From IMG/VR virus record IMGVR_UViG_3300024346_000020: a stretch of DNA of 64,000 bases; one strand, given 5' to 3'. Of this stretch, positions 160 through 45,590 are shown in pieces (the stretch's first letter is position 1; each line of letters opens with the position of its first letter). Position numbers and translations under genes: made by a program. Under the pieces are notes generated by a model that was given only the letters and a program-made list of their open reading frames with translations, ran no database searches and was not told the origin of the DNA. The DNA is from a virus (taxonomy: Duplodnaviria; Heunggongvirae; Uroviricota; Caudoviricetes).

Positions 160-208
160 GTTGACTTACAATTTTTTATATATAGTTATATAAAAATATT
201 TTAATAAA

Positions 209-7654: not shown

Positions 7655-7978
7655 ATGAAACATTTAAAAAATACCAGAAAAGATACCCAGAATAAATGGG
7701 ATAATCTTATTGGAAATATAGGTCTAACTGGATCTAAAGCCACCTGGATGTCTCAGTATGTTGGTTTACAATCACAATCAATAACACAATCAAATTTTCC
7801 TAGTATGCTTCCAATTGCAATGAAAGTTGCTGCACAAACTGTAGGATTAGATTTAGTATCAGTTCAACCAATGTCTGCACCACTAGGTACTTTACATTAT
7901 ATGGACTATCAATATGGTGACATGAAACATATAACAAGAAAAAGAAAAATTAATAATATATTTAAAGTCAATGAGTAG
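7655..7978 (+). CDS. hypothetical protein
   Basis: ORF only. Confidence 0.45.
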   Translation: MKHLKNTRKDTQNKWDNLIGNIGLTGSKATWMSQYVGLQSQSITQSNFPSMLPIAMKVAAQTVGLDLVSVQPMSAPLGTLHYMDYQYGDMKHITRKRKINNIFKVNE

Positions 7979-8172: not shown

Positions 8173-8505
8173 ATGACAAACATATATTTAATTTGTGCGG
8201 ATATAGAAGGTGAAAAACTACATAAAATAGGTTTCACTAAAAGAAAGATTGAAACAAGACTAAAAGAGTTTAAGACTGGAAATGCAGCAGATCTTTATTT
8301 AGTAGATTCTTTCAAATCGAAATGGGGAACTAAGATAGAATCAAGTCTCCATAGAATCTTTAGAAGTAAAAGAGTTAGAGGTGAATGGTTTAATCTAACA
8401 AAAGAAGATGTACACTCATTTAATGGTTACTGTCAAACCTTACACGATAACTTTGAGTTTATCACTGAGCACAATACATACTACTTAGATAAACCCAACT
8501 TTTAG
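8173..8505 (+). CDS. T5orf172 / MUG113 (GIY-YIG-like) domain protein
   Basis: IYLI...KIGFTKRKIETRLKEF...LHRIF...RVRGEWFNL matches the T5orf172 domain signature (GIY-YIG superfamily), including the terminal GEWF. Confidence 0.6.
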   Translation: MTNIYLICADIEGEKLHKIGFTKRKIETRLKEFKTGNAADLYLVDSFKSKWGTKIESSLHRIFRSKRVRGEWFNLTKEDVHSFNGYCQTLHDNFEFITEHNTYYLDKPNF

Positions 8506-11271: not shown

Positions 11272-11462
11272 GTAAGGAAAAGATTTTAACGGTTTATCAG
11301 AGCCAAGGATTAAAGAAATTGATTTCTTTTATTGAGAATACCGATTGTTTAATAATTGAAGATGACTTTTCAGAAGATGTTTCTGATATTGTCTTAAACT
11401 ATGATTATATGATTATAGATGAAAAAATAACAGAACTAATAATAGCACATGAACTTAAATAA
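11247..11462 (+). CDS. hypothetical protein
   Basis: ORF only. Confidence 0.35.
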   Translation: MGFNKRYLSKEKILTVYQSQGLKKLISFIENTDCLIIEDDFSEDVSDIVLNYDYMIIDEKITELIIAHELK

Positions 11463-12156
11463 AAATTATTATTCTATACTTGGTGTGGCGAATACATCAA
11501 CTGAAAAAGAAATTAAGAAAGCTTATTATAAACTTTCGTTTGAGAACCATCCAGACAAAGGGGGTGATGCTGTCATCTTTGGTGAAATGACTGAAGCATA
11601 TGATATTTTATGTGGTGAAGAAAGAGAAGACTATGATAAGAAAAGTAAGTTTGGTAATTGTTATAACGAATACTTTGAACTTTTTGAAACAAACTTTGAC
11701 TACTCATATGATGATACTAAAGATAAATATGAAAAGTTTAAAAAGAATGAAGTTTATAATATTCATATTAAAGTTGATGATACCTTTGATGGTAAATTAG
11801 AATACGAAAGATGGGTTCGTTGTAAACCTTGTGATGGTACTGGAAAAGATCTTTCTTCTAAAATTGTTATCAAAGATAATGATGGTAATATTATGAAAAT
11901 ATTTGACTCAGAAGATGGTTGTGATTTGTGTGAAGGGACAGGAAAATATAGAGATCAAGATTGTCCATTTTGTCTTGGTAAAGGTAAAGTAGGTCTAAAT
12001 CCTTGTACAACTTGCAAAGGAGAAAGACGTATTTTAGGAAAGCAAAAACTTACTAAGATAAAACTAACTGGTGAAGAAACTAAAATCGATGCAATGGGTC
12101 ATTGTTCTAAAACTGAACCGGGTAAAGTAGGATATCTACTAATTATTAGTAATTAA
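11449..12156 (+). CDS. DnaJ-like co-chaperone: J domain plus a CR-type four-repeat zinc finger
   Basis: YYKLSFENHPDKGGD (HPD tripeptide of the J domain). Four CxxCxGxG repeats (CKPCDGTG, CDLCEGTG, CPFCLGKG, CTTCKGER). Confidence 0.75.
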   Translation: MNLNKNYYSILGVANTSTEKEIKKAYYKLSFENHPDKGGDAVIFGEMTEAYDILCGEEREDYDKKSKFGNCYNEYFELFETNFDYSYDDTKDKYEKFKKNEVYNIHIKVDDTFDGKLEYERWVRCKPCDGTGKDLSSKIVIKDNDGNIMKIFDSEDGCDLCEGTGKYRDQDCPFCLGKGKVGLNPCTTCKGERRILGKQKLTKIKLTGEETKIDAMGHCSKTEPGKVGYLLIISN

Positions 12157-12667
12157 TTAAAAGTGGAGTTTTATAAATATAACCACTTTTCATTTTATCT
12201 ATTTGTTTTGGACCAGAAGCTTTCCATGTAATTTTATATAAACTATCCGCAACTTTTACAGCAGATTTATACTCTCTCGTAATTTTATCATCTACTATCC
12301 ATTTGTTACTATGTATGTATATTTCATCTGTTTTAGTTTCTTCATCGGTATATGGGTTATAACTTACCTTATCATCCCAATGAATATCAAAGAATATACC
12401 ATACTTCTCTATACCTATTTTTGTACCTTGATAAATAACATTTTCAATATCTTCTATATTATGATTTCCTGCTAAAATAATATCAATATCAGTAGGAGTT
12501 CCAACATTATCAACTAATTTATCTAAAAAACTACCAGTTAAATAAACATCAAATTTTTCAGAATTAGGTATTTTAAAGAAGTCATCTCTCCAACTGAAAA
12601 ATGATACTATATTTGGTTCTAACCAAACTATATTATCTATTTCTATTTTACCATATTTTAAATTCAT
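12146..12667 (-). CDS. putative Pol-beta-superfamily nucleotidyltransferase-fold protein
   Basis: YLTGSFLDKLVDNVGTPTDIDIIL fits the hG[GS]-x(9-13)-DhDh NTase signature; convergent with, and overlapping, the DnaJ-like gene by 11 nt. Confidence 0.35.
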   Translation of the reverse strand: MNLKYGKIEIDNIVWLEPNIVSFFSWRDDFFKIPNSEKFDVYLTGSFLDKLVDNVGTPTDIDIILAGNHNIEDIENVIYQGTKIGIEKYGIFFDIHWDDKVSYNPYTDEETKTDEIYIHSNKWIVDDKITREYKSAVKVADSLYKITWKASGPKQIDKMKSGYIYKTPLLINY

Positions 12668-12682
12668 AATATATTGTAATTT

Positions 12683-15600
12683 TTATGGATAATCATAACC
12701 ATCATTATCTTGTCCTTGATCATCATAACCTTGATCTCCTTGATTATCATATTGATCTTCTTGTTCAAAATCCTGAATATAACCTTGATCTCCAGGTTGT
12801 GGAGTATTACCTTGAGGTGTCGTTCCGGCAACAGTTACAACAACCACTCCTTTAGTACAAAATAGACTCATAGTAATACCTGGAGATTGATTATTCGCAG
12901 TATCAATAATTAAATACCTAAATGTTGTGGTATAGGAAGAACCCTCTTCTGTAATATCAGCCAATGATCCAGAACCCTCCCCATAGTTATTGTCTACCGG
13001 ATTACCCCATGGGAAGTAATACATTTTGTAATTAGTTATATCAGAAATATTAATCTCACCGTTTACTTGTAAGTCTACATAAGTAACATTATTATAAATT
13101 AGTTTACCAACTGTTGGCAACGATATAATTTTTATTTTACTAGCAGCACCGGCAGTACTACTATACTGAGATAATAATTCAGTAGATAGAATATTTTTAC
13201 CCAATTGAGTAGGAATATCAGTTACACTATAAGTAATACCTTTAAGCTTAGATGGGTTACCAACTAGTATAGTAGGAACTTGCACAACTGATAAAATAAC
13301 ATTTATATTAATTCGGGCGGTATCTGTTATTGGAAATGGTAAATTACTTGAAGTAGCAGATACTGCAGTAACTAATAACTGATAGTTGCCTGAGCCCAAT
13401 CCCGATGCAATAGGGTTTAAAGTATTAGAACCACTAAGAGTTATTGTTGGACCAGTTGAGGTAGGAAGAGTTGTCCAAGTAACTAATGATGGTGTACTAA
13501 TATCATTAGATGCAATAATATAAGCATTTAATTGTAATGGAAGTGTGTCGTTCTTATTAATAACAAGTAATCGTGAATCTGTTGCAGTTGAACTTTGATT
13601 TGTAATTACCGCAAATGTGGATACTGTTGTTGGTGTACTACTAATTACTACTGCAGTTTGACAATCTGTAGCAAGAGAGTTATTTCCGTTTGCATCAATT
13701 GCATCAACACCAACTGTAATATTATCAACAAATACAAAGTCAGAGTTTAAGTAATCAATATTTGGAGCTTCTCCAATATATGGAATTTGTATTCCTTTAT
13801 AGATATTGTCTTCATCAAAATATTTAAAAAATGGAATCATATCTACCTCATACATATTAAGATTATCCAACACTAACATTGATGTACTGGCACCAGTTGC
13901 ACCATTACCGTTGATACTTAACATCATATCAGTTTTATTATAGAAATATTCATACTTTTTGGTCGGTTGATTTTTTCCATAGCCGCCCCACTTAGCAGGT
14001 GTGGATTCTTCAATAGAATCTAATCTAAATGTATTTTTTACTTTTAAGTGATTAACATTTTCTCTTATAGGTAAATAATTCATCTTTTTATAAATCTGTA
14101 CATTATCATAACCAGATAATTGTGTAGTAATATCATAATTAAGATTAGAAAGATTTAATATTGGTAATGTTGAAATTGGTTCTGTATCTATACTAACCAA
14201 ATCTTTATACTGAATACTTATTGACCAATTTACTAGATCACAAGGAATTGCTACAAGTGGATTATATTTAATGTATAATCTCCAAACACCATAGATTGTT
14301 CCACCACTTATTAATTCTGATAATGTAGTAACATCTGATACATAAGAAGGAACCACTGGTCCAACCGGTGGCTGAAATGATTCATCACCTTGATTCAATT
14401 GCTTATCCATCAAATATGTATCAATATAAGGTGTTGTACCTAATGAAATTTTAGTATATACATCTCTTAAACTAAACTTAGTATTTGATAATTCTGTACC
14501 TAAACCACTTCCATTTCTTTTAACATTTATAATTGAACCATTAGGTGCTTGTAAATTAATAATTGTACTAGTAACATCACCATATAAATTAATCGTAACT
14601 AAAATATCATCTACTTGTATACCTGGAGGACCTGGTGGACTCATACCAAGTGAATAACTACTTAGTATAGTATTATTTAATGATGCACTAGGTCCAGGAT
14701 AAATTGTCTCTATAAATGGTCCAGTACTATCAATACTCTTTACTAAATAAATATTAGGGTTTTTATAAGTAAAGTTTGTACTTGCAACACTATAGGTTAT
14801 AACATCAAATTCTACAATAGAATATCTAGATTTTGAAATATTTATATTATTATTATTTAATATCAATCCTGTATTACTTGCATTTACATATAACTCATCA
14901 CCAGTTACCCCGGAGTTTAAAAAATCAGTAGATAATTGGTTGTTTAGTGATATTATATTTTCGGTTCTTTTTAAAGAAAAGTTATTTATATTATTATATG
15001 ATGAAGTCCAACCCACATTTATAAAGTTACTAAAATCTAGCTCATTAAATGGCTCATTAAATTCGGAACCCGCTCCAATAAAATCAGTAAATGCTTTATA
15101 TTTAGTACCTAATTTATATAATTTATAATCTAAAGTATTACTATCTCTAAAACGTGATAAAGATGCCAAAACATCATAGGTTGGATATCCATATAGATTA
15201 TTTCTATTTATAGATTTTTTGGTAAGTGGTTCATACATTCTAAAATCTCTACCTAAAGTAACTGATCTAGTAGAATCATAGTTTACATCAATCCAAGAAT
15301 TAAAGCTAAATACTGCAGTAGATAATGGATTATCAATAGACTTTATCTTAGATCTATTATTATCATAGAATTTAAAATTTTGTATCAAACCAGTTGCAGT
15401 ATATCTTATTACAGAACCAATTGAAGTATTACCTACAGGAACAGTAATTGGTCTTCCATCAAATACTTTATCAATTGTAACAACATCAAACATTATACCG
15501 TTTGTTGGATCTATTTTATGTTCCACTGCGATAACTAGTGCGACACCTGCATATCCACCACCATCAACTACATTACTTTCAAAAGTAATTAAAATATAAT

Positions 15601-17332
15601 CACCTGGTAAAAGTGATGTATATTGTCCATTTGGATATCCTTGTGCAGCACCAAATGTTAAATTTATATAACCATTAGTACAAGCTTGACGTGCATCAAA
15701 TCCAGTAAAATAATATGTATCTGAATAATTAGAATTGAAATGACCACCATTAAAGAATCCGTCAATCCAGTGTGTATTAAACATCTCTGTTATACGAGGG
15801 AATCCTTTGAATAATCCATTATTCCAAACACCAGAGAAATAACCATTAAAGAAACCACCAGATAGCCAAATATTTTTAGTTACCTTTATCTTATGGTTTT
15901 GAGAATCCTTCTCAATTCTTCTATAAGGAAAAGTTGTATCTAGATTTACTCTCATCCAACCATAAGCAGACTGTGTTTCTCCAGTTACAGAATAATTATA
16001 TGCGATACCCAAGTTTTCTATCTTATAATAATCTTTCAAAAGTTTCCTATTATCATTTATATCTATTGCAACAATATTGCCGATTGATACTGCAGATCCA
16101 GTTGCAAAGTTTGCAATTGAATATGTAGAACCTCTAATTTCAATTTTCCATGAAATATCCGATTCCGTTAAAACTGAAAATGCAACATCATCAAAGTCTC
16201 TTGCTTCTTCATCATCTCTCCAACCACTATTCCAAACACCATTCTCCCAAATACCTGATCTAAATAAACCATTACCGATTCTAGATGTTAGTGTATAAGG
16301 AGTTCCGTTTTGAAGTAGTATATGTGAATAAGTTGCTTCAAGAATATCAACTATTATTGGTGTAGTACCAGAATAACTTCCACTACCATCACTAGTTAGT
16401 TGTAATAAGTTATTTTTAGGATGATAAGCTCCAACGATATTAATATTATCCAAACTTGCTGCATAATTACTACTTTGTGATGCTGAGATAACTAAATAGT
16501 TTTTAGAACCATTTGTATTTGTACCTATTAAACTAGTAGTTGCGAATATTGTTGAAGATGTAAAACTTACGATAGAAGGTCCCCAAGAAGTTGGAGTTTT
16601 TAGTAAATCATTTCTAACTATATAAATACTCATTCCGTCACTTGTATTACTGAATGTGGAAGATGTATATTTTAGTTCTAAACTAAAAGTATCATACTCT
16701 ATAGGTTTTGCAATAAAATTTTTAGTAACTATCGTATCTAAACCAGAACCAAATATAGAGTATGTTGGTGTTATACTAGTAGAATTGTAAATCCAATTAT
16801 ATGAAGAAACCTGACTTGAATTATTACCAAAATACCATCCACTTGGTTGAGTATTATCATTAATTGATCTATCTAAGTAACTAAACTCTCTATAACCATT
16901 TATTAAAAAGTCAAGTTCATTTAATATAGATTTTGTAATTATTGATTGTGTAAAAGAATCATTCGCACCATATCTAACTATTGATTTTGATTTCAATGTA
17001 GATAAAGGAGTAGTATAAGTATAAAATTCAACACCTGTTTGTGTAATACCAGACACATCTGTTGTAACTGATGCAATAGAGTCTTTGAAGGGTGCATTAA
17101 ATCTAATAGATAATTGTGCACCAATTGTTGAAGTTGAGCTTGATACACCAGTAACTATTTGGTAGTTTTTACCCTGAGTGTAAGTATATCCACTTGGATA
17201 ATTAGTATCTATAACTCTACTATCAATATACACTATATTATCAACATTATTGGAATTTCTATTAATACCAATTTGTGATGATATAGTCGATGTGGTCCAG
17301 GACTGAATTAAATTTGTATCTATAAATGGCAT
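12683..17332 (-). CDS. giant virion structural protein (tail fibre or baseplate-like) with W-x-NG-x-F-NGG-x-F repeats and an acidic Q/D/G/Y-rich C-terminal tail
   Basis: 1549 aa, beta-rich and S/T/N-rich. Repeats such as IWLSGGFFNGYFSGVWNNGLFKGF...WIDGFFNGGHFNS are shared with the 19222..24816 protein. Confidence 0.6.
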   Translation of the reverse strand: MPFIDTNLIQSWTTSTISSQIGINRNSNNVDNIVYIDSRVIDTNYPSGYTYTQGKNYQIVTGVSSSTSTIGAQLSIRFNAPFKDSIASVTTDVSGITQTGVEFYTYTTPLSTLKSKSIVRYGANDSFTQSIITKSILNELDFLINGYREFSYLDRSINDNTQPSGWYFGNNSSQVSSYNWIYNSTSITPTYSIFGSGLDTIVTKNFIAKPIEYDTFSLELKYTSSTFSNTSDGMSIYIVRNDLLKTPTSWGPSIVSFTSSTIFATTSLIGTNTNGSKNYLVISASQSSNYAASLDNINIVGAYHPKNNLLQLTSDGSGSYSGTTPIIVDILEATYSHILLQNGTPYTLTSRIGNGLFRSGIWENGVWNSGWRDDEEARDFDDVAFSVLTESDISWKIEIRGSTYSIANFATGSAVSIGNIVAIDINDNRKLLKDYYKIENLGIAYNYSVTGETQSAYGWMRVNLDTTFPYRRIEKDSQNHKIKVTKNIWLSGGFFNGYFSGVWNNGLFKGFPRITEMFNTHWIDGFFNGGHFNSNYSDTYYFTGFDARQACTNGYINLTFGAAQGYPNGQYTSLLPGDYILITFESNVVDGGGYAGVALVIAVEHKIDPTNGIMFDVVTIDKVFDGRPITVPVGNTSIGSVIRYTATGLIQNFKFYDNNRSKIKSIDNPLSTAVFSFNSWIDVNYDSTRSVTLGRDFRMYEPLTKKSINRNNLYGYPTYDVLASLSRFRDSNTLDYKLYKLGTKYKAFTDFIGAGSEFNEPFNELDFSNFINVGWTSSYNNINNFSLKRTENIISLNNQLSTDFLNSGVTGDELYVNASNTGLILNNNNINISKSRYSIVEFDVITYSVASTNFTYKNPNIYLVKSIDSTGPFIETIYPGPSASLNNTILSSYSLGMSPPGPPGIQVDDILVTINLYGDVTSTIINLQAPNGSIINVKRNGSGLGTELSNTKFSLRDVYTKISLGTTPYIDTYLMDKQLNQGDESFQPPVGPVVPSYVSDVTTLSELISGGTIYGVWRLYIKYNPLVAIPCDLVNWSISIQYKDLVSIDTEPISTLPILNLSNLNYDITTQLSGYDNVQIYKKMNYLPIRENVNHLKVKNTFRLDSIEESTPAKWGGYGKNQPTKKYEYFYNKTDMMLSINGNGATGASTSMLVLDNLNMYEVDMIPFFKYFDEDNIYKGIQIPYIGEAPNIDYLNSDFVFVDNITVGVDAIDANGNNSLATDCQTAVVISSTPTTVSTFAVITNQSSTATDSRLLVINKNDTLPLQLNAYIIASNDISTPSLVTWTTLPTSTGPTITLSGSNTLNPIASGLGSGNYQLLVTAVSATSSNLPFPITDTARININVILSVVQVPTILVGNPSKLKGITYSVTDIPTQLGKNILSTELLSQYSSTAGAASKIKIISLPTVGKLIYNNVTYVDLQVNGEINISDITNYKMYYFPWGNPVDNNYGEGSGSLADITEEGSSYTTTFRYLIIDTANNQSPGITMSLFCTKGVVVVTVAGTTPQGNTPQPGDQGYIQDFEQEDQYDNQGDQGYDDQGQDNDGYDYP

Positions 17333-17368
17333 AAACTATATATTAAATTTATATACTACTTATGATAA

Positions 17369-19201
17369 TTATTTCCTTCTTTTTTTTCTTTTAGTTGTTA
17401 TCAGTTTATAGATCAAAATAGAGAATTTACTACCAATATAATTTATAATCTTTCCAATTTTATTATCTTTCTGCAATACTCTCATTGTATAAGCCATATG
17501 TTCGCTCCAAGGCTTTACTATTAAATATAAATACTTTGAATATTGTGGATTTTTAGTTAAGAAACTAACCACTGGTTTTGCCCATGTTAAATATCCAAAT
17601 GAAACTTCCTTATTTTTCCTCAACATTAATCTTCCAAACTTCTCATCTGCTTCCCAAATTTCCTTAGATAAGAATCCTTGACTATATAATAAATTACATA
17701 TAATTTTTGGTCCACTACCTCCACTATAACCAATACCACCATAATTACCGCCACCTAAATCAAAATTAGAACAATATGTAGGAGTAATTGTTATAATTCC
17801 ATCATTATTAATTTTACAAAGTGCATAAATTTGATCTGTTTGTAATAAAGTAGTTATAAATACTCTATATGTTAAATCACCACCCGGAAATGGTGTACCT
17901 GAAGAATTTATACACACCTGATCACCTGATCCAACACCGATCGGATTAGCAGATCTTATATGACAAGATATTGTACTAGTACTAAGACAATTTGCATTTG
18001 GATCTGATCTAAAACCAGGTCTAATAAGTGAACATACTGTAACCTTGTTGACTATACTGACTATTACAGATGTATTTGCATTAGTACCAATTTGTACTAC
18101 TTTTGTTAAAGTTACTGATGTCGATACATCTATATATTCTACAATATAAAAGAGTTTGGCTCCGATAAATGGTGTAGTACAATCACTATCTGAAAATAAG
18201 TTAGTACCAACCGCAAAATTCGCAGTATTCCAATAAACATTATTAGTCAGTGGGAGTTCACAGAAACCCGCTGCAGTAGTACCTACTTTACCTGCCGAAA
18301 TACGTGCAGTTTTACCAACACCACATAAATAGGGAGTTTCAACAATAACACCAACAGAATTTATTTTACATGAGTAAAATAAACCTGAAGGACTTTTAAT
18401 TATCCAATACTGATTAGCCAGAAGTATCATACCATTAAAAGTATTTGTTTGTATACTATTTGTATAAACAATAACACCAAGTGCAGGTGGTTCACTACTA
18501 AGAAATATTGCAGTATTAAAGTTATTTGTATTTGATGTTGTAATTGGACAACTATTTGCTTCTCCACCCTGAAAACTATATTCACTTGATATTTGATAAT
18601 TTGAAGTAATTACATAATTGAAATATTTATATGTAGGACTAACCTCACCACCTGCATCCCGAATTCTTATTCTAAATTGGTGTGTGACTAGTTGTTGTGG
18701 AGTAAAACTATAACTTCCACTTGTCTGTGAAGAATTTATAAATGGAAGATCTTGCCAAGAACCTGTTGTTTTATATGATAATTCATAACCTACTATATTA
18801 TATTCTGCATCAAACGCATTAGACCATTGTAATAATATTGGTAGACTTGTTCCAGGTGCAGGAGGTGCAGGAGGTGCAACTCCATTTACTTCAAAGTTAG
18901 ACCAATCAGCAATATCTGTAAAATTTGGACCAAGTGCAAGAAAGTTTATAGACCAATCACCACTACCATTATCTGTTACATTCCAGAGAGAACCATAAGG
19001 ATCTAATGTAGTTCCACTATATAACTCACTCCATGGTGCTGATGATAATGATGGATGAACTATTGCACCAGATAAAAGTTCTAAAGTCAATGAGTAATGG
19101 TCTGCAATTATTACAGCAGCATCTACTGCAGATATGTGAAATATCCAACTACTATTGATATTCACTACTACATTTCTACTTAAAATTGTTATTGTTGCCA
19201 T
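17369..19201 (-). CDS. virion structural protein (610 aa) with a PPAPPAPG linker and a basic KRKKRRK C-terminus
   Basis: Beta-rich composition; sits between the two giant structural genes on the same strand. Confidence 0.5.
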   Translation of the reverse strand: MATITILSRNVVVNINSSWIFHISAVDAAVIIADHYSLTLELLSGAIVHPSLSSAPWSELYSGTTLDPYGSLWNVTDNGSGDWSINFLALGPNFTDIADWSNFEVNGVAPPAPPAPGTSLPILLQWSNAFDAEYNIVGYELSYKTTGSWQDLPFINSSQTSGSYSFTPQQLVTHQFRIRIRDAGGEVSPTYKYFNYVITSNYQISSEYSFQGGEANSCPITTSNTNNFNTAIFLSSEPPALGVIVYTNSIQTNTFNGMILLANQYWIIKSPSGLFYSCKINSVGVIVETPYLCGVGKTARISAGKVGTTAAGFCELPLTNNVYWNTANFAVGTNLFSDSDCTTPFIGAKLFYIVEYIDVSTSVTLTKVVQIGTNANTSVIVSIVNKVTVCSLIRPGFRSDPNANCLSTSTISCHIRSANPIGVGSGDQVCINSSGTPFPGGDLTYRVFITTLLQTDQIYALCKINNDGIITITPTYCSNFDLGGGNYGGIGYSGGSGPKIICNLLYSQGFLSKEIWEADEKFGRLMLRKNKEVSFGYLTWAKPVVSFLTKNPQYSKYLYLIVKPWSEHMAYTMRVLQKDNKIGKIINYIGSKFSILIYKLITTKRKKRRK

Positions 19202-19221
19202 TATTTATTATATTTTTTTAA

Positions 19222-22200
19222 TTATACATTGTCTATATTAGTACTATTACTAGTAGGTATGGATAAAGTACTACTTCTTGCGGTTATTTCTACTAAACAA
19301 CTAGATGCAGTAGAAGTAGGATTAAATACATATGAAGAACTTGCACTTCCTAAACTATTCAATGTAATAGTTCCTGTTCTACCTAAATGCAAAAAGTCTA
19401 TTGTCGCTACTGATACCGGAGATGAAAATGATATACCATTAAAAGTACCATCAACACTAGCCGTAAAATCAAGTGTTAGCACTTCATTCGGTTCTCCACC
19501 TGAGAAATCAAGTGTTCCTGCTCCTGAATTAGGTATCTCCGAGGTAATAGTCAATCCCCCACCTCCCGATGGTGTAGATGTTCTTGTATATTTTAAAACA
19601 TTAGAATGTGTTAAAGCTAGTGTTGGAGTTAAGGTAACAGTCGATTCAATTCTAAAATAAATATCTCCTGTTATAAGGAAGTCTGTAAAGTCATATAACT
19701 TATTAGTTGTAGTTACATCAGAATCAAAAAACCATGTTATATTATCTTCACTATATTGCCATTCTGCAGCAATTAGATTACTTAAACTACTTGTCAATAA
19801 AACGTCTACTAAACCAGAGATGTCCTCTATATCAGCATTTGAATTAGTATCAAGATATACTATAGTGATAGGAAGTACTGGTATACTAACCGCACCACCA
19901 AATGTTGAATTAGATTGCCAAACTGGTGGTGTATTAGTAGTCTCAGAAATTATAATAGTTGAATCATAAATTATATCTGTAGCATTTGAATCTATAGAAA
20001 TATTAATATTTGAAAGGGATTCATTTAGAAATATATTCCAAACATGACAAGATGAAGTAATACCTCTGGAAGGCCAATTCATACCTCTAAATAGAATTTG
20101 TTTTTCAAAATCACTGGTTATACTACCACCACTATCTAGATCAAAGCTAGATCCATACCAGTTACCATTTCTCCAAAGGCCATTTTCCCAAAAAATATTA
20201 TAAGCATTCATATAACTTACAATACCATTTTTCCAAATCATACCATATCCATTACCAGATATAAAGTTACCATTTTCCCATTCTGATATATAAAAATCAC
20301 TATCTATAAGTGTTCCATTTTTCCAAATACAAGTATCACTAATACTAAAAGTTGGTATAGATGTTGGTAGAAATATATTTCTATTTACATACGGATTAAA
20401 TGAACTTGACTTAAATGTACCATTTTCAAATGTACCATCTATCCAAACAGAGTTTTGTATAGTTCCACTTGGATGACTAAATGTTCCACCCATCCAAAGT
20501 ACATTTCTTAACACCACAGTTTTTAAATTTATATTGGTATCACTTGCTCTTTTTGAATCAATATATACCCCTCTATTGACGTATCTATCCTTAGTATCCG
20601 TTACAAATCCACTTTTCCAAATACCATAGCTATTTATACTTGAAGTTCCAAAAGATGTTATAAAGTTTTTTGCATTATTTGATTCAGTACCACCAATTGC
20701 ATAATAACCAGATTGTGTTCTACCTCCACCATCAAACTCTCCAACTGTAAATATACCATTATTCCAAACCTTGCCCTTAAAGTATCCACCATTAAATTCT
20801 CCATCAAACCAACTTGAATTACTTACAACAGAACTATTATTTAATATACTTAAATCCCCAATTCCAAACTCACCACCATTAAATACACCATATTCCCAAG
20901 AATAATTAGCTTTAATATCTGATGTAGAATATAATATAAGTTGTGATGAATTATAATATGACGTAAATTTACCACCATTAAATACACCATTTAACCATTT
21001 AGCTGTTCCAGTAAACTCACCACCATTAAATACCCCTCCAGACCAAGTAGCTAAATTAAGATTGTTGTATGTACTAAAAATTCCACCATTAAATATACCA
21101 TTTCTCCATTGTATAAGACCATTTCTATTTATCCCTGGTGCTCCTAAAATTCCTAGTGGTAATTTTAGATTTGTCTGTGCAATAAGTTCTGCATTTTCAA
21201 CAGTTGTATAATTTATAATACCATTATAAACTTTTGTATATCCAGTTGTTATGGAAGAATCTCCTATTATACCACCATTTATCGTACCGTTATAGAATTT
21301 TGAATAGTAAAATTTACCACCATTAAAGTCTCCACCTTCCCAATCACTTTTATAAAACTCTCCATTTATAAATTTACCTTTTTGCCAAGACCATCTATTA
21401 TTCATTACTTCAGAAGCACGTGGACGTGGGGTGAATAAACCGACGGAAGCAAATATTATAATTTCTTTTGTTAAACCACTTTTATAAAAGTCATTTCTAT
21501 TATTGTCATTATATGAGAAATCAATAATATTACCATCAAAAGAATTTGAACTATAGAATAACCCATTATTAAATACACCATCTAACCAAGTTGAAGATTT
21601 AACCAAACCATCATTAAATGTCATACCATTCCAAATAGAATTATATAAAATACCATTTTCCCATATATCATTACCACCTACAAAAAATGAATTCATATAA
21701 GTTGCCTTAGATAAAATATTTGAGTTTTTAGAAAATATAGAATCTATTATTAATAAACTCTTTATTTTTTCAACATTATTAAATTCTCTATCACTAACAT
21801 CATATAACTCATTTTTTATTAAAGATGTATTAAAATATGCTTTTTTAAATATACCAGATAATATTTTTGATCTATAAAATTTAGTTTTGTGTAAATATCC
21901 ATATCTATTATTCGCACCATAAGAACTAAATTTACCACCACCCGTTAAACCAGGCAAAATACTTGTTGAACCAATTGCAATAATTTCTTGTAGTTGATAA
22001 TTACCCTGTGGTAGATCTTTAACTATTTTATATTGATCTGGTAATCTAGTCAAAGAACCTGTTATACCAGTTACTGAGAATGTTGCATTGTTTCCTGAAT
22101 TAGGTTGAATAATTGTTAGTATATCACCATTTGAATATCCTAAACCAGGATAATTAATATTTACTGATAAAACTGCACCATTATTTACTGAAGTAATAAG

Positions 22201-24816
22201 AATAATATCATCACTACCACCACCTTGTTGAACTCTTTGCATAGATACTGTAGATCCTACTGAATATCCAGATTGTCCAGTTCCAGGTACAATAGCAATT
22301 GAACTTGTATTTCCTGCAAACATACTAAATTGTAGTAGTCCATTTCCACCATTAACACCACTATCAGTAGAATATATATTATAGCCCAAATTTGGAATAC
22401 CACTACCTTCAGATATTAAAGTGAAACCAGTCACCTGACCTATAACACTTGCAGTAATATCAACAGTTAGTCCTGTTCCTTCCCCAGTCACTGAAGTTTT
22501 TGATGCTGATGCTGTATTATAATATGATCCAGTACCAGAGAAAGAAATGCCTGTCACTTTTCCTCTAGAATCATAATCGACTGCATTTAAGAATACTACT
22601 TCACCTAATGCTAAGTAGTCATTTTCTACTTCTTGATATCGGTCATTTGTAGTGGAATAAAGTGTTTTAACATTTATAGACGATGTTCCACCAACTAATG
22701 ATATATTATAATATCCACCTCTGTTAGAAAGATCTCCATACTTATCATCTGAATTCCAAATCTGTGCTGAGTCATCAAGCTTTATATTCACATCATTACT
22801 AAAATTGAAATAATTTCCACTATTCCAATTAGAATTTTCAAAAATACCACTTTCAAAGTCAGAGTTTAAAATATAAGCATCCGAATAATCAATAGTAAGA
22901 TCTGGTAATGTAACAGATAAATTTTGAATATCTGAAAGAGTAACAAAGATATCAATAGAATATCCGAAATTATCTTTAATAGTCGCAATATTTGGATTTA
23001 AAGAATTTGCAGTATAATTAACATCTGATAAGTAATCATTATCTTTTGGAGTTGAGAGCATACAGTTATACTCAAATCCTCTTTTATACCATTTTTTACC
23101 AGAGAAAGATGGAGATAAATCAAATTTATCAGTATATTCAACATAAGGTCCTATTTTAAATTTTTTATCAAAGAAGTTAAGTAATAAATTATCATTACTA
23201 TTTATCTTCAATCCTTTTATATAAAAGGTATCTTTAAACTTAAACTTCTCATAACTTCTTTTATTTATATAAAATTTATAAATCTTATGTGATGCAGACT
23301 GTGCACTAGCTTGACTAAACTCTGTTTCCTCAAAATGTAATATTCTTATTGAATTATCACTAATATAATTAGAGTTTTTAAATAAAGACTTTTTATACTG
23401 TGTATTTATTGACTTAACATTATAAAATCTACTATTTTCTACTCTTGAGTTTTTTACAACTGAGTTTTGTATATTTGCATTTTGAATACCACAACTTTCA
23501 AAATAAGCTTTATTTATAAGTGTGTCACTAAAATTATTCTGTATAAACTGTGTGGTCAGTGTTCCTCTTAAATGCTCTTCTACAATTGAATATGATGTAG
23601 ATGATGTACCTAATATTGAGTTACTAACATTCGCATTATTTATAATTGCATTTCTTATTTCTGAATTTATAACAAAATTATAACCATATCCATCATTATC
23701 TGGATTAGTTGATTTTTGATATGGTGCACCAAAAGTACCCACAATATTATCAAACTCAGAAACATAACTTTGTAGTTGACTTTGTTTAGATTCCATTATT
23801 CCTCTTTCCCAAATAGTATTTAATAAAGTACCTGAGTTCCAAATAGATGAGGTAGAGCCCCAAGTAATTCTTTTATCATTACTACCATAAATACCACCAT
23901 TCCAATTTCCATTGAAAGTACCATTTCTAAAATTAGATTTAGATATTAAAGGAACATTTTTATTTTCATGTTTTACATTTACTTGCCAACTTGAAAAAGT
24001 ACCAAATGTTTCATAACTATAAACTAAATTCTCTTGAAAATCTACTCCATAATAGTTAAAACTATTATTTAATATTAGTATTTTGTCTGCACTCGCAGTA
24101 GCCGCAATAGAATATGAACCAATCATAAAATCAATACTTATATTGATCCAACTTGAAGTTCCATTTTTAATAAAAAATCCAGGTCCACCATTTAAACCCA
24201 GTGATTCACCCCAAGGGCCAGTTACACTATGACTTGGTTCTGATGTAAATATTATATTATTTTGATTTTTATTAAATCTATAATCAAAATCCCCTCCACG
24301 AGTTGTAATCTGTCTATTTACATGAATAAAGTCATTCTGATCTTTAACATAATAAACTTTAATTAGATTATCTAAGTCATCACTTGGCTCTGTTGCTTCG
24401 TTACTAGGTAAACTACCATTGAACTCTATATCCAATACAACTTGACACTTATCTACAAATAAAACTTTATAACCATCATGACCTTTTTTATACTTATCAC
24501 TTGCTATTAGTAAATTACTATCATAAGTACCATTGATTATAAATACTCTATCTCCTATACTAAATCCAGAGTTAACTTCTGTATAGAATAAAGTATAATC
24601 AACACCCGCTATTTTATAAGGTTCAACCCAATTTAAAAGTTTAGGACTACAAGGTATACCATATTTTAAAACTACATTTGTATCATCACTTGTTAGATTT
24701 AATTGTGGGTCATATCCTACTAGATTAATATCTTGACCAATTTGATTTAATTCTTCTGTGGTTATTAAATAAGGTTTGGTGAATAGATTCTTTTTCACTA
24801 AATTTGTTGAACTCAT
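19222..24816 (-). CDS. giant virion structural protein (1864 aa) with numerous W-x-(N/D)G-x-F-NGG-x-F repeats
   Basis: WSGGVFNGGEFTGTAKWLNGVFNGGKFT..., WEYGVFNGGEFG..., WFDGEFNGGYFKGKVWNNGIFTVGEFDGGG. Glycine/aromatic periodicity suggests a beta-helix or fibre. Confidence 0.6.
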   Translation of the reverse strand: MSSTNLVKKNLFTKPYLITTEELNQIGQDINLVGYDPQLNLTSDDTNVVLKYGIPCSPKLLNWVEPYKIAGVDYTLFYTEVNSGFSIGDRVFIINGTYDSNLLIASDKYKKGHDGYKVLFVDKCQVVLDIEFNGSLPSNEATEPSDDLDNLIKVYYVKDQNDFIHVNRQITTRGGDFDYRFNKNQNNIIFTSEPSHSVTGPWGESLGLNGGPGFFIKNGTSSWINISIDFMIGSYSIAATASADKILILNNSFNYYGVDFQENLVYSYETFGTFSSWQVNVKHENKNVPLISKSNFRNGTFNGNWNGGIYGSNDKRITWGSTSSIWNSGTLLNTIWERGIMESKQSQLQSYVSEFDNIVGTFGAPYQKSTNPDNDGYGYNFVINSEIRNAIINNANVSNSILGTSSTSYSIVEEHLRGTLTTQFIQNNFSDTLINKAYFESCGIQNANIQNSVVKNSRVENSRFYNVKSINTQYKKSLFKNSNYISDNSIRILHFEETEFSQASAQSASHKIYKFYINKRSYEKFKFKDTFYIKGLKINSNDNLLLNFFDKKFKIGPYVEYTDKFDLSPSFSGKKWYKRGFEYNCMLSTPKDNDYLSDVNYTANSLNPNIATIKDNFGYSIDIFVTLSDIQNLSVTLPDLTIDYSDAYILNSDFESGIFENSNWNSGNYFNFSNDVNIKLDDSAQIWNSDDKYGDLSNRGGYYNISLVGGTSSINVKTLYSTTNDRYQEVENDYLALGEVVFLNAVDYDSRGKVTGISFSGTGSYYNTASASKTSVTGEGTGLTVDITASVIGQVTGFTLISEGSGIPNLGYNIYSTDSGVNGGNGLLQFSMFAGNTSSIAIVPGTGQSGYSVGSTVSMQRVQQGGGSDDIILITSVNNGAVLSVNINYPGLGYSNGDILTIIQPNSGNNATFSVTGITGSLTRLPDQYKIVKDLPQGNYQLQEIIAIGSTSILPGLTGGGKFSSYGANNRYGYLHKTKFYRSKILSGIFKKAYFNTSLIKNELYDVSDREFNNVEKIKSLLIIDSIFSKNSNILSKATYMNSFFVGGNDIWENGILYNSIWNGMTFNDGLVKSSTWLDGVFNNGLFYSSNSFDGNIIDFSYNDNNRNDFYKSGLTKEIIIFASVGLFTPRPRASEVMNNRWSWQKGKFINGEFYKSDWEGGDFNGGKFYYSKFYNGTINGGIIGDSSITTGYTKVYNGIINYTTVENAELIAQTNLKLPLGILGAPGINRNGLIQWRNGIFNGGIFSTYNNLNLATWSGGVFNGGEFTGTAKWLNGVFNGGKFTSYYNSSQLILYSTSDIKANYSWEYGVFNGGEFGIGDLSILNNSSVVSNSSWFDGEFNGGYFKGKVWNNGIFTVGEFDGGGRTQSGYYAIGGTESNNAKNFITSFGTSSINSYGIWKSGFVTDTKDRYVNRGVYIDSKRASDTNINLKTVVLRNVLWMGGTFSHPSGTIQNSVWIDGTFENGTFKSSSFNPYVNRNIFLPTSIPTFSISDTCIWKNGTLIDSDFYISEWENGNFISGNGYGMIWKNGIVSYMNAYNIFWENGLWRNGNWYGSSFDLDSGGSITSDFEKQILFRGMNWPSRGITSSCHVWNIFLNESLSNINISIDSNATDIIYDSTIIISETTNTPPVWQSNSTFGGAVSIPVLPITIVYLDTNSNADIEDISGLVDVLLTSSLSNLIAAEWQYSEDNITWFFDSDVTTTNKLYDFTDFLITGDIYFRIESTVTLTPTLALTHSNVLKYTRTSTPSGGGGLTITSEIPNSGAGTLDFSGGEPNEVLTLDFTASVDGTFNGISFSSPVSVATIDFLHLGRTGTITLNSLGSASSSYVFNPTSTASSCLVEITARSSTLSIPTSNSTNIDNV

Positions 24817-24896: not shown

Positions 24897-25622
24897 ATGA
24901 ATAAACGAAAAAAAATATTAGTATTCTCTGGTGCAGGACTCTCGAAAGAAAGCGGGATTGAAACCTTTAGAGACTCTAAGGAAAGCTTATGGAACAATTT
25001 CAAGATTGAAGATGTTGCTACCATCGATGCATGGAGAAAAGATAAAGAATTAGTACTAAAATTCTACAATGAACGTAGGGCACAATTAAAAGAAGTAAAA
25101 ACAAATCTAGCACATAGACTTATAGCAGAGTTAGAGAATGAATTTGATGTAACTGTAGTTACACAGAATGTAGATAACTTACACGAAAGAGCAGGATCTA
25201 CTAACATAATACACTTACACGGAGAACTAACCAAAGTACGTTCAACATTAGACCCAAGACTAATCTACGATTGGACAGAAGACGTAAATATAGGAGATAA
25301 ATGTGATAAGGGATCTCAACTAAGACCACATATCGTTTGGTTTGGTGAGGCATTAAATCCAGATTATATGAGTAAAGCAGTAAAAGCAGCAGAACAATGT
25401 GACTATTGTATAATAGTCGGAACTTCTTTACAAGTTTTACCTGCAAATGAAATTCCATTTTTAACAGATGTAGAAGTACCCGTATATTATATTGAACCAT
25501 CTAATATAGATATGGTTATGTATGATATACCAGACTATAAATTACCTTATTTCCACCATGTGAAAAAGGTTGCCACAAAAGGAATGCAATATATTTTTAA
25601 CCAATTAAACAAACAAATATAA
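24897..25622 (+). CDS. Sir2-family NAD-dependent protein deacylase / ADP-ribosyltransferase (CobB-like)
   Basis: GAGLSKESGIETFRD (GAGIS-ESGI-TFR), QNVDNLHERAG (QNID-LH), HGELTKVRS and IVWFGE motifs, all characteristic of sirtuins. Confidence 0.8.
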   Translation: MNKRKKILVFSGAGLSKESGIETFRDSKESLWNNFKIEDVATIDAWRKDKELVLKFYNERRAQLKEVKTNLAHRLIAELENEFDVTVVTQNVDNLHERAGSTNIIHLHGELTKVRSTLDPRLIYDWTEDVNIGDKCDKGSQLRPHIVWFGEALNPDYMSKAVKAAEQCDYCIIVGTSLQVLPANEIPFLTDVEVPVYYIEPSNIDMVMYDIPDYKLPYFHHVKKVATKGMQYIFNQLNKQI

Positions 25623-27534: not shown

Positions 27535-28644
27535 TTATTTCTTAAATTCTTTTTTATCAGAAGAAATGTAGAACTTATCGAAGTCATAATACTTAGAATA
27601 AACTTCTTTAATCTTTTTCAAAGTAACCTCTTCTAATATATCATACACCGACCAACCCGTGGGATTTATCCATTGATTCACAGAAGCATATCTATTGATT
27701 TCATCTTTTTGTTTTCTAACACCATAGTATTCTTTAACAAGGTTAAATCTTTCTTTAGTTAAAAACTTATCTGGATTTGTAATAACTTTCTTAACTGCTT
27801 CTACAACCTCATCAAAGTTTTTATTTGAAGTCAATGTTGAAATAGAATTTAATCCTTTATCATTTACTCTTGACTGATAACAATGAACGAAATAAACTAA
27901 TCCTTTTTTCTCTCGTATCTCTTGATATAATGGAGATTTCAATCCTAATGATAACATAGCATTGATAAAATGAACATATGCAAAGTCTTCTTCAATTACT
28001 GGTGAAAGAATTACAACAGAAGTTTTATCTTTAAAATCATTGTTTAATTCTAAATCTGTATCGTGATTACCAAAACTTAAATTAGTTACGATTTTTCTTT
28101 CTTGAAACTCAACCGCTTTATTTTTATAATCTTTGTTTTTAGATACATTGATAATTTTAGTTGGTTTTGCATATTGTAATTCAAAGAAGTTAAGACAATC
28201 CATAAATTTTAGATTCTCTAAATCTTTTTTCAATCCAATTGGATCATAATCATTAAATAACTTTCTAGAAAGATTTAACATATGAGATTGAGATTGATCA
28301 TTGAAACAATCCATATACTCTTCAAGAACAATTTTTCTTTCGTTTTCAAATTCCTCTTTAGTAACTTTAAAAGAAGTTAGTAAGTCGACAAATTGATTTT
28401 TATATTTATTTACCTTTTCATCTAATCCAGTTAAATAGAATACAATTTCATTTGATGAAGTATAAGCATTCCAGTCGATGCCGTCTCTATCAAAGTCTTC
28501 TTGTAAGTGATCGAATGATTTGCATAAAAGGTGTTCCATAATATGACTTATCCCATACCAACCCGGTTTTTCTAAGTTTGTTGAACCCTCATACACAACA
28601 TAGAATCCACTTAAATCAGTTGGACTTTTTAAATTTACTATCAT
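27535..28644 (-). CDS. M16-family (insulinase/pitrilysin-like) zinc metallopeptidase
   Basis: GISHIMEHLLCKSF contains the inverted zincin motif HxxEH, at the N-terminal position typical of M16 peptidases. Confidence 0.6.
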   Translation of the reverse strand: MIVNLKSPTDLSGFYVVYEGSTNLEKPGWYGISHIMEHLLCKSFDHLQEDFDRDGIDWNAYTSSNEIVFYLTGLDEKVNKYKNQFVDLLTSFKVTKEEFENERKIVLEEYMDCFNDQSQSHMLNLSRKLFNDYDPIGLKKDLENLKFMDCLNFFELQYAKPTKIINVSKNKDYKNKAVEFQERKIVTNLSFGNHDTDLELNNDFKDKTSVVILSPVIEEDFAYVHFINAMLSLGLKSPLYQEIREKKGLVYFVHCYQSRVNDKGLNSISTLTSNKNFDEVVEAVKKVITNPDKFLTKERFNLVKEYYGVRKQKDEINRYASVNQWINPTGWSVYDILEEVTLKKIKEVYSKYYDFDKFYISSDKKEFKK

Positions 28645-36843: not shown

Positions 36844-36894
36844 AATTTTTTTTTAGTGTTTAAGTTTTAGTGTGAATTATTAAAAAGTTTTAAA

Positions 36895-42270: not shown

Positions 42271-42279
42271 TTTAAACTA

Positions 42280-45486: not shown

Positions 45487-45590
45487 TTTATGATCTTTGA
45501 TTTTTTAGTATATATTAAATTGTCAGTTTTCTTTAATGGTTTATTTGTTATTAAAAATAAAATTCGTATATTTGTAGAAATATAATAATT

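What the first reader, a model, noticed from the sequence alone, without database searches (positions are those of the whole stretch)
12683..24816. Novel W-x-(N/D)G-x-F-NGG-x-F repeat shared by two giant structural proteins
Both the 1549-aa and 1864-aa minus-strand proteins contain many copies of an aromatic/glycine motif (for example WLNGVFNGGKFT, WFDGEFNGGYFKG, WIDGFFNGGHFNS, VWNNGLFKGF) at irregular 12-20-aa spacing. I cannot place this repeat in any named family from memory; it may define an uncharacterised fibre or beta-helix fold used by this phage lineage for host recognition. The 1549-aa protein also ends in a Q/D/G/Y-rich acidic low-complexity tail
Basis: seen in the sequence. Interest (0 to 1): 0.55.

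Follow-up and report, generated by a model that had tools for sequence, protein, structure and literature searches.

The report
Aromatic pentapeptide-repeat beta-helix in huge-phage fibre proteins
Two giant neighbouring proteins of a huge (about 600 kb class) bacteriophage share a tryptophan/phenylalanine/glycine repeat that proves to be an unusual variant of the known "pentapeptide repeat", predicted to build a rigid beta-helix rod of the kind used in phage tail spikes and bacterial adhesins, so it is a new flavour of a known building block, not a new fold.

Summary
The ORFs and the motif are real. B (19222-24816, 1864 aa) has 12 fifteen-residue units and about 20 double pentads. A (12683-17332, 1549 aa) has only 4 units, in two short patches. 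Shuffles give about 0. The repeat has a 5-residue period, [W/F]-x-x-G-x, grouped W-F-F into 15-residue units with loops after the third pentad. Pfam, NCBIfam, PHROGs and PDB sequence searches do not place A's or B's repeat. Regular versions of the same repeat in other phage proteins pass Pfam's threshold for Pentapeptide_4 and the SV2 luminal pentapeptide domain, and B orthologues give sub-threshold hits to the same two families. AlphaFold2 models B 976-1560 confidently as a right-handed beta-solenoid, nearest to the TibA and Ag43 adhesins and to phage tailspikes. A's patches are modelled poorly. Homologues (about 430 each) are all unnamed metagenomic proteins, many on 400-650 kb phage contigs (Mahaphage-type). 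B then A is a conserved gene pair. Homologue C-termini swap Ig-like, lectin-like and Peptidase_S74 modules, which fits fibre or spike proteins. Best reading: the repeat forms the shaft, and the C-terminal modules bind the host. This is a new variant of a known kind, of moderate interest. Whether a coil holds three or four pentads is unresolved.

The parts
19222..24816 (-). Gene B, 1864 aa: giant beta-solenoid fibre- or spike-like protein
   Evidence: ORF. 437 unnamed homologues, some on 400-641 kb contigs. AF2 model of aa 640-1600 has pLDDT 78.6 and pTM 0.69.
20137..21891 (-). B aa 976-1560: main aromatic pentapeptide-type repeat region. It holds 12 fifteen-residue W-F-F units, including 9 contiguous pentads at aa 1144-1188, interrupted by loops.
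23797..23931 (-). B aa 296-340: N-terminal patch of aromatic pentads (FRNGTFNGNWNGGIYG...WNSGTLLNTIWERG)
   Evidence: Seen in the sequence. Not modelled.
23371..23553 (-). B aa 422-482: stretch resembling canonical pentapeptide repeats
   Evidence: Pfam Pentapeptide_4, E 4.9e-5, 23.8 bits, below the gathering score of 38. Weak Qnr and HetL NCBIfam hits. The family profile gives weak hits to the SV2A luminal domain.
22807..22872 (-). B aa 649-670: aromatic pentad patch (ILNSDFESGIFENSNWNSGNY) just before the inserted domains
21997..22719 (-). B aa 700-940: inserted beta-rich domains with repeated G-x-G-Y motifs, lying between solenoid segments
   Evidence: AF2 pLDDT about 75-90 with longer strands. 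Function unknown.
19225..20019 (-). B aa 1600-1864: variable, acidic, Ser/Thr-rich C-terminal region, the candidate distal or binding end
   Evidence: The family consensus breaks down here. Homologues carry fn3, PKD or Peptidase_S74 at this position. 30% S+T, net charge -21.
12683..17332 (-). Gene A, 1549 aa: second giant protein and conserved downstream partner of B
   Evidence: ORF. 425 unnamed homologues. B-to-A adjacency is seen in LR745206, LR756502 and at least 7 IMG/VR contigs.
16433..17332 (-). A aa 1-300: beta-sandwich domains resembling carbohydrate-binding modules
16220..16279 (-). A aa 352-371: aromatic pentad patch 1 (IGNGLFRSGIWENGVWNSGW)
   Evidence: G353, N354, W362, G365, W367, N368 and G370 are invariant in 36 homologues. 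AF2 pLDDT is below 40.
15878..16201 (-). A aa 378-485: beta domain inserted between the two repeat patches
   Evidence: AF2 pLDDT about 70-80.
15728..15874 (-). A aa 487-535: aromatic pentad patch 2 (three units, including WIDGFFNGGHF)
   Evidence: W489, G492, F494, W503, G506, W522, G525, G529 and G530 are invariant. AF2 pLDDT is below 40.
12686..12820 (-). A aa 1505-1549: acidic Q/D/G/Y low-complexity tail
   Evidence: Net charge -12 over the last 50 aa. DNA tandem repeat at 12688-12751. Present in relatives of at least 68% identity and replaced by other tails in more distant ones.
17369..19201 (-). Gene C, 610 aa, lying between B and A. It has no repeat and is a lineage-specific insert in the B-A pair.
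   Evidence: No units found. No confident family match. B and A lie directly next to each other in LR745206 and LR756502.
12146..12667 (-). 173-aa ORF, the last gene of the minus-strand B-C-A block. Function unknown.
   Evidence: no family match.

Best explanation
A and B are a conserved pair of very large fibre-, spike- or adhesin-type proteins of a huge, Mahaphage-type phage. The shared motif is an aromatic variant of the pentapeptide repeat. The central residue is Trp or Phe, where canonical repeats have Leu or Phe, and the residue two positions before it is Gly, where canonical repeats have Ala. Pentads come in a fixed W-F-F order, giving a 15-residue unit.

Stacked pentads give short strands joined by Gly/Asn turns. 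These wind into a right-handed beta-solenoid. The invariant aromatic side chains probably fill the core and the glycines probably make room for them (inferred). In B this solenoid, about 600 residues with loops and inserted domains, is the rigid shaft. In A two short patches clamp an inserted beta domain, and may need oligomerisation or a partner in order to fold. Host or surface binding is more likely done by the CBM-like and Ig-like modules and the variable C-termini than by the repeat itself.

Shown: the repeat statistics, its conservation, the Pfam link through relatives, the predicted solenoid, the gene order and the domain swapping. Inferred: virion location, oligomeric state, the orientation of the aromatic residues and the binding role.
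For: Repeat statistics and the 5/15-residue period. W, G and F columns are invariant in both families.

The same unit in other phage proteins passes Pfam's gathering score for Pentapeptide_4 and LD_SV2, with the match lying on the repeat itself. That region aligns to B 1051-1375 at E 3e-21. Of 50 repeat-only segments, 18 hit Pentapeptide_4 and 19 hit LD_SV2, and essentially nothing else matches. Seven of 10 B-orthologue segments give sub-threshold hits to the same two families. Profile hits carry precomputed PF13599/PF23894 labels and the JGI name 'YjbI with pentapeptide repeats'. B 1144-1188 holds 9 contiguous pentads, which meets the rule of at least 8 in PMC8145042.

For a fibre role: Peptidase_S74 sits at the extreme C-terminus of homologues of both A and B, and fn3, PKD, He_PIG, Fib_succ_major, DUF5122 and P-domain modules are swapped among homologues. 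A's N-terminus is CBM-like. The B-to-A gene pair is conserved. The family is virtually absent from 185,579 cellular genomes.
Against: A's and B's own repeat regions match no Pfam pentapeptide model, even at E<=1. Trp at the centre and Gly at i-2 lie outside the published consensus.

There is no proteomic or microscopy evidence that either protein is in the virion, and no cultured phage has a homologue. The flanking genes are not structural: Sir2, DnaJ, an SbcC-like protein and an M16 peptidase.
Confidence: 0.58

Rival explanations
1. The repeat is an independent 15-residue beta-helix repeat: one rung per W-F-F unit, three faces, with an aromatic ladder on each face. It only resembles pentapeptide repeats by convergence, through its 5-residue period and Gly/Asn turns. 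On this reading it would define a new solenoid family with a geometry of its own.
Against: Regular copies score above Pfam's gathering threshold over the full length of the Pentapeptide_4 model (positions 3-78 of 78). In B and its shorter relatives the aromatic repeats run on from canonical-looking pentapeptide repeats within the same chain. That continuity is easier to explain by divergence than by convergence.
Confidence: 0.25
2. The repeat does not form a single-chain solenoid. Instead it forms an intertwined trimeric beta-helix, as in endosialidase stalks, the T4 gp5 and gp12 type, and fibres that depend on a C-terminal S74 chaperone. The monomer AF2 model would then be an artefact.
For: Peptidase_S74 intramolecular chaperone domains sit at the C-termini of some A- and B-family members. 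A's repeat patches do not fold as a monomer, with pLDDT below 40.
Against: B's repeat region is modelled as a monomeric solenoid with pLDDT 85-96. S74 chaperones also serve trimeric tailspikes in which each chain has its own helix (general knowledge, not tested here). Only a few homologues carry S74.
Confidence: 0.1
3. A and B are intracellular pentapeptide-repeat effectors, for example DNA mimics that target gyrase like Qnr and MfpA, rather than external fibres.
For: Weak NCBIfam hits of B aa 373-515 to Qnr and HetL models.
Against: Those hits score 9-15 bits against cut-offs of 240-500. B's repeat region is about neutral, with net charge +2 and pI 8.2, whereas DNA mimics are strongly acidic. 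The proteins are 1500-1900 aa long and carry CBM-like, Ig-like, lectin-like and S74 modules.
Confidence: 0.03
4. The motif is a MORN-type repeat, or simply a compositional artefact of a Gly/Asn/aromatic-rich sequence.
For: A tblastn hit of a repeat protein to a MORN-type 'PIP5K-like' gene of Pseudomonas phage PspYZU05 (E 2e-4). MORN shares the G-x-W-x-x-G pattern.
Against: No MORN Pfam hit appears in any of 50 repeat segments. Composition-preserving shuffles give about 0 motifs. Motif columns are invariant across homologues.
Confidence: 0.02

Closest known systems
Pentapeptide repeat proteins (Pfam PF00805 / PF13599 Pentapeptide_4; Rfr fold; MfpA, Qnr, HetL; SV2 luminal domain PF23894)
   Same: Tandem 5-residue units with a hydrophobic or aromatic central residue, a small residue at i-2 and Gly/Asn/Asp at i+2. 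B has a run of at least 8 contiguous pentads. A right-handed beta-solenoid is predicted. Regular relatives of the repeat pass the Pfam thresholds.
   Different: The centre is Trp or Phe, with an invariant Trp every third pentad. Position i-2 is an invariant Gly, not Ala/Ser/Thr/Val. Pentads form a fixed 15-residue super-repeat with loops after the third pentad. A and B themselves fall below every Pfam model. The predicted solenoid resembles three-faced helices more than Rfr-fold structures. The setting is a 1500-1900 aa modular phage protein, not a roughly 200 aa cytoplasmic protein.
AIDA-I-type autotransporter adhesin passenger domains (TibA, Ag43) and other secreted beta-helix adhesins (pertactin, EtpA, SPATE passengers)
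   Different: There is no sequence relationship. TibA uses 19-residue repeats with small aliphatic core residues (general knowledge), not a 5/15-residue aromatic repeat. B has no autotransporter barrel.
Phage tailspikes and tail fibres with beta-helix bodies and a C-terminal Peptidase_S74 chaperone (for example CBA120 TSPs, HK620, Det7, Andhra gp15, endosialidase-type fibres)
   Different: No catalytic (lyase or hydrolase) signature was found. The rung is much narrower and repeat-regular. The proteins are far larger. No homologue exists in any cultured phage.

Membership tests
Pentapeptide repeat superfamily (PF00805/PF13599 clan) | At least eight contiguous 5-residue repeats (definition in PMC8145042) | tested here: met
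   B aa 1144-1188 holds 9 contiguous pentads with centres W F F W F F F I I. The lag-5 aromatic autocorrelation is z=5.7. A has at most 4-5 contiguous pentads, so it is met for B only.
Pentapeptide repeat superfamily (PF00805/PF13599 clan) | Consensus [S,T,A,V][D,N][L,F][S,T,R][G], or the 2019 update (A/C/S/V/T/L/I)(D/N/S/K/E/I/R)(L/F)(S/T/R/E/Q/K/V/D)(G/D/E/N/R/Q/K) | tested here: inconclusive
   The unit consensus from 426 copies is S-x-W-x-N | G-T-F-N-G | G-x-F-x-N. Phe at the centre and G/N/D at i+2 fit. Trp at the centre and Gly at i-2 are outside both published consensus sets.
Pentapeptide repeat superfamily (PF00805/PF13599 clan) | Match to a Pfam pentapeptide HMM at or above the gathering score | tested here: not met
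   A: no hit. B repeat region: no hit at E<=1. B aa 422-482 scores 23.8 bits against a gathering score of 38. It is met only by relatives carrying the same unit: the L019 ORF at 43.6 bits against 38, and 18 of 50 segments at E<=0.01. Seven of 10 B orthologues are sub-threshold.
Pentapeptide repeat superfamily (PF00805/PF13599 clan) | [quoted passage not shown] | tested here: inconclusive
AIDA-I/TibA-type autotransporter adhesins | 19-residue imperfect repeats, a C-terminal beta-barrel translocator, and sequence homology to the AIDA family | tested here: not met
   No Pfam, NCBIfam or PDB sequence match. The similarity is in fold only.
Phage tail fibre or tailspike (receptor-binding protein) | Presence in the virion at the tail tip or baseplate | not testable with these tools
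   No cultured relative and no proteome. The only support is indirect: S74, Ig-like and CBM-like modules.
Phage tail fibre or tailspike (receptor-binding protein) | C-terminal Peptidase_S74 intramolecular chaperone, or another recognised fibre domain, in this protein | tested here: not met
   A and B have no such hit. Homologues P0102 (B family) and P0239 (A family) do, at 25-28 bits against a gathering score of 22.
MORN repeat | Match to the Pfam MORN model; 23-residue Y-x-G-x-W-x-x-G-x-x-x-G-x-G unit | tested here: not met
   No MORN hit in A, B or any of the 50 repeat segments. The period is 5/15, not 23.

The most novel reading that the evidence does not exclude
The W-F-F unit forms a previously undescribed solenoid geometry. 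It would be a narrow right-handed beta-helix with one 15-residue rung (three pentads) per turn, not the four-pentad Rfr coil. Its core would be made almost entirely of stacked Trp and Phe rings, with invariant glycines at the corners. Jumbo and huge phages would have evolved it from pentapeptide repeats as an ultra-compact rigid shaft for very long fibres. A's two unfoldable patches might complete or dock onto such a helix in an oligomer or in an A-B complex.
Probability: 0.3. Interest if true: 0.6.

Novelty: new variant of a known kind. Interest (0 to 1): 0.4.

Why it matters
Huge phages (400-735 kb) have never been cultured, and their particle architecture and host-attachment machinery are essentially unknown. 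This work identifies a conserved gene pair of giant beta-solenoid proteins with swappable distal modules. These are concrete candidates for the receptor-binding fibres of Mahaphage/Lak-type phages. That could help host prediction and the design of capture reagents.

For protein science, an all-aromatic, Gly-cornered pentapeptide-type solenoid extends the known sequence space of that fold. It is currently missed by the Pfam models: A and B score nothing. A dedicated profile would annotate a few hundred orphan giant phage proteins. If the rung really is 15 residues, it would be a new minimal beta-helix geometry of interest for solenoid design.

Tried and rejected
Direct family searches found nothing for the repeat. 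I ran Pfam, PHROGs and NCBIfam on A, B and C. The only results were weak pentapeptide hits at B 422-482 and meaningless sub-threshold hits.

PDB sequence searches were equally empty. Single sequences gave no hits. The family profile gave only weak SV2A luminal-domain hits at the canonical-like N-terminal stretch.

BLASTP of A against B showed only motif-level matches, so the two are not paralogues over their length.

I checked for stop-codon recoding and read-through between C and A, which are in the same frame. All stops are TAA and the genes are separate.

DNA-level tandem repeats are absent from the repeat region, so this is not a recent duplication. The promoter and terminator scan gave counts at chance level.

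The MORN idea was rejected. The DNA-mimic idea was rejected on charge.

I tested whether the TibC-like heptosyltransferase 7-10 kb from A specifically partners these TibA-like helices. Only 1 of 35 viral contigs with the enzyme also carries the repeat. The enzyme is also absent from LR745206 and LR756502, which hold the closest B and A orthologues in the phage collection. The idea is not supported as a specific association.

The cellular-genome scan found only one contig, from a metagenome-assembled genome, which is probably a phage contig.

I could not inspect the AF2 coordinates, so residues per turn and side-chain orientation remain unresolved.
Full report
**1. Observation**

The window has about 29% G+C. 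It carries a minus-strand block of four ORFs. B is at 19222-24816 (1864 aa). C is at 17369-19201 (610 aa). A is at 12683-17332 (1549 aa). A 173-aa ORF lies at 12146-12667. All end in TAA, and 30 of the 35 long ORFs in the window use TAA. C and A share a frame, but a TAA stop and an ATG 12 codons downstream separate them. There is therefore no sign of stop-codon recoding or fusion.

The strict pattern W.[ND]G.F.[NGD]G occurs 5 times in B and once in A, against 0 in 300 shuffles. A loose double pentad occurs 19 times in B and 6 times in A, against 0.7 and 0.3 expected. No other ORF in the window has it beyond one isolated match at the level shuffles give.

I built a 15-residue unit HMM from 426 copies taken from other phages. 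It finds 12 units in B (aa 1075-1555), 4 in A (aa 360-534) and none in C. Shuffles give 0.02. The observation therefore holds. 'Many copies' is true only of B, because A has two short patches at aa 352-371 and 487-535. Outside the motif, A and B are not detectably similar.

**2. Anatomy of the repeat**

Aromatic residues in B 1031-1560 recur at lag 5 (z=5.7), lag 10 (3.3) and lag 15 (2.6). The basic unit is a pentad, [W/F]-x-x-G-x. Three pentads in a fixed W-F-F order make a 15-residue unit. Its consensus is S-x-W-x-(N/G/D)-G-(T/I/V)-F-N-(G/N)-G-x-F-x-(N/G/S).

Loops of 1 to about 18 residues are inserted only after the third pentad. B 1144-1188 is an uninterrupted run of nine pentads.

Across 36 B-family members at 46-89% identity, the W, G and F positions are invariant columns. 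The same is true of A's two patches across 36 A-family members down to 35% identity. There is no DNA-level tandem repeat under the repeat region, so the copies are old.

**3. What it is**

Pfam, PHROGs, NCBIfam and PDB sequence searches give nothing for A. For B they give only a sub-threshold Pentapeptide_4 hit at aa 422-482, which lies outside the aromatic repeat.

I scanned IMG/VR for the back-translated motif and found 113 stretches. Besides B and A orthologues, these include many shorter proteins of 400-900 aa. They have 15-27 double pentads, often as perfect 15-residue arrays such as WSGGTFNNGTFENSN. They are only 26-31% identical to B's repeat region.

One such array passes Pfam's gathering score for Pentapeptide_4 (43.6 bits against 38, covering model positions 3-78 of 78). 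It also passes for the SV2 luminal pentapeptide domain (36.4 against 29). Both alignments lie on the W/F/G repeat itself. That array aligns to B 1051-1375 at E 3e-21.

Of 50 repeat-only segments, 18 hit Pentapeptide_4 and 19 hit LD_SV2 at E<=0.01. Apart from a single Tudor_2 hit in one segment, no other family appears. Seven of ten B-orthologue segments give sub-threshold hits to the same two families.

A profile search with the repeat alignment returns metagenomic proteins of roughly 570-720 aa. Many are already labelled PF13599/PF23894, and some are named 'YjbI with pentapeptide repeats' by JGI.

By the published definition, a pentapeptide repeat protein has at least 8 contiguous pentads, the consensus [S,T,A,V][D,N][L,F][S,T,R][G] and a right-handed quadrilateral helix (PMC8145042). 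On that basis the repeat is a divergent, aromatic member of this superfamily. Phe at the centre and G/N/D at i+2 fit the consensus. An invariant Trp every third pentad and an invariant Gly at i-2 do not.

**4. Fold**

AlphaFold2 on B 640-1600 with 35 homologues gives pLDDT 78.6 and pTM 0.69. Within the repeat blocks pLDDT is 85-96, and a 2-3-residue strand is centred on every aromatic residue.

**5. Context and distribution**

tblastn against 50,697 phage records finds B and A only in uncultured huge phages. These are LR745206 (634,780 bp) and LR756502 (642,428 bp), and for B's repeat also LR756501/LR756503 (735,411 bp). Together with LR756504 (636,363 bp), their lengths match the 634, 636, 642 and 735 kb genomes of Al-Shayeb et al. 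2020. Those genomes fall in the Mahaphage clade with predicted Bacteroidetes hosts (PMC7162821).

The protein database holds about 430 homologues of each protein. All are unnamed, and many lie on 400-650 kb contigs. Exhaustive phmmer of B's repeat region against 1.84 billion representatives finds only 194 proteins. One hit appears among 185,579 cellular species genomes, on a 43-kb contig from a metagenome-assembled genome.

B directly followed by A is conserved in LR745206, in LR756502 and in at least seven IMG/VR contigs. C is a lineage-specific insert between them.

Homologues keep the N-terminal two-thirds and swap C-terminal modules. The modules seen are fn3, PKD, He_PIG, Fib_succ_major, the DUF5122 propeller, the proprotein-convertase P domain and, in both families, a terminal Peptidase_S74 chaperone. 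This pattern is typical of receptor-binding fibres and spikes.

The flanking genes are not structural. They encode Sir2, DnaJ, an SbcC-like protein, an M16 peptidase, an NAD-dependent ligase and an S1-domain protein. A collagen-like 'tail fibre' gene lies at 194-2353.

**6. Mechanism**

My best-supported reading has confidence of about 0.58. B is a long, rigid beta-solenoid shaft built from aromatic pentapeptide-type rungs, with inserted domains at aa 700-940 and a variable distal end. A is its conserved partner. A carries CBM-like and Ig-like modules, and its two short repeat patches clamp an inserted domain and may fold only in an oligomer or complex.

The invariant aromatic residues probably form the core, and the invariant glycines probably make room for them. 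Both points are inferred. The repeat is therefore more likely scaffold than the recognition surface.

A DNA-mimic role like that of Qnr or MfpA is unlikely. B's repeat region is about neutral, with net charge +2 and pI 8.2.

The rivals are an independently evolved 15-residue three-faced helix (0.25), an intertwined trimeric helix (0.10), an intracellular effector (0.03), and MORN repeats or a compositional artefact (0.02).

**7. Novelty and verdict**

A beta-helix-forming repeat that no database model recognises in A or B is correct. It belongs, however, at the edge of a well-known superfamily, and it is not restricted to this lineage.

I rate it a new variant of a known kind, with interest 0.4. 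The most novel reading not excluded is a new 15-residue, all-aromatic-core solenoid geometry (probability about 0.3).

Noticed in passing
window 2685-5915 (+): A 1076-aa fusion glycosyltransferase. The N-terminus is GT4-type (Glycos_transf_1). The C-terminal aa 728-1071 is a strong sequence homologue of TibC, the heptosyltransferase that glycosylates the TibA beta-helix adhesin (PDB 4rap_A, E 1.3e-52). TibC-glycosylated TibA is also the best structural match of protein B. The enzyme is not specifically linked to the repeat proteins, however. Only 1 of 35 viral contigs carrying it also has the repeat, and it is absent from LR745206 and LR756502. A collagen-like fibre gene lies immediately upstream and could be its substrate instead.
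   Followed up: partly
window 194-2353 (+): A 720-aa protein with collagen triple-helix repeats (Pfam Collagen, E 3.7e-24). It hits many PHROG 'tail fiber' families through those repeats. It is another candidate fibre protein of this phage.
   Followed up: no
window 17369-19201 (-): Gene C (610 aa), between B and A. It has 12 cysteines and ends in a hydrophobic stretch followed by a basic tail (KRKKRRK). No confident family matches; the only hit is a weak Endotoxin_C match at 16.5 bits. It is absent between B and A in LR745206 and LR756502, so it is a lineage-specific insertion.
   Followed up: partly
window about 7655-7978 (+) and 8173-8505 (+): A 107-aa ORF carries a precomputed Pfam Gp23 (T4 major capsid) hit. 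It sits close to a T5orf172/MUG113 (GIY-YIG-like) ORF. Coordinates were mapped from locus L001. It may be a capsid-gene fragment next to a homing-endonuclease-like gene.
   Followed up: no
window 37993-42276 (-) and 42280-45504 (-): Two further giant minus-strand ORFs of 1427 and 1074 aa. Neither has a Pfam match, and neither carries the W/F/G repeat. The second matches phrog_29329 (unknown function) at E 2e-89.
   Followed up: no
window 21997-22719 (-), B aa 700-940: A set of beta-rich domains with recurring G-x-G-Y motifs (for example GSGY, LGYN, GLGYS) is inserted in the middle of B's solenoid. They are modelled at pLDDT about 75-90 and match no family.
   Followed up: no
locus L003 (JALOAD010000029.1, 43 kb): The only 'cellular' genome hit for the B family is a contig binned into a Candidatus Muiribacterium halophilum metagenome-assembled genome. 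It is 45% identical over B 640-1600. This is probably a huge-phage fragment placed in the wrong bin.
   Followed up: no
window 24897-25622 (+), 11449-12156 (+), 27535-28644 (-), 45561-47426 (+), 35755-36852 (-): Auxiliary genes typical of very large phages surround the fibre-like block: a Sir2-family protein, DnaJ, an M16 peptidase, an NAD-dependent DNA ligase with BRCT, and an S1 RNA-binding protein.
   Followed up: no
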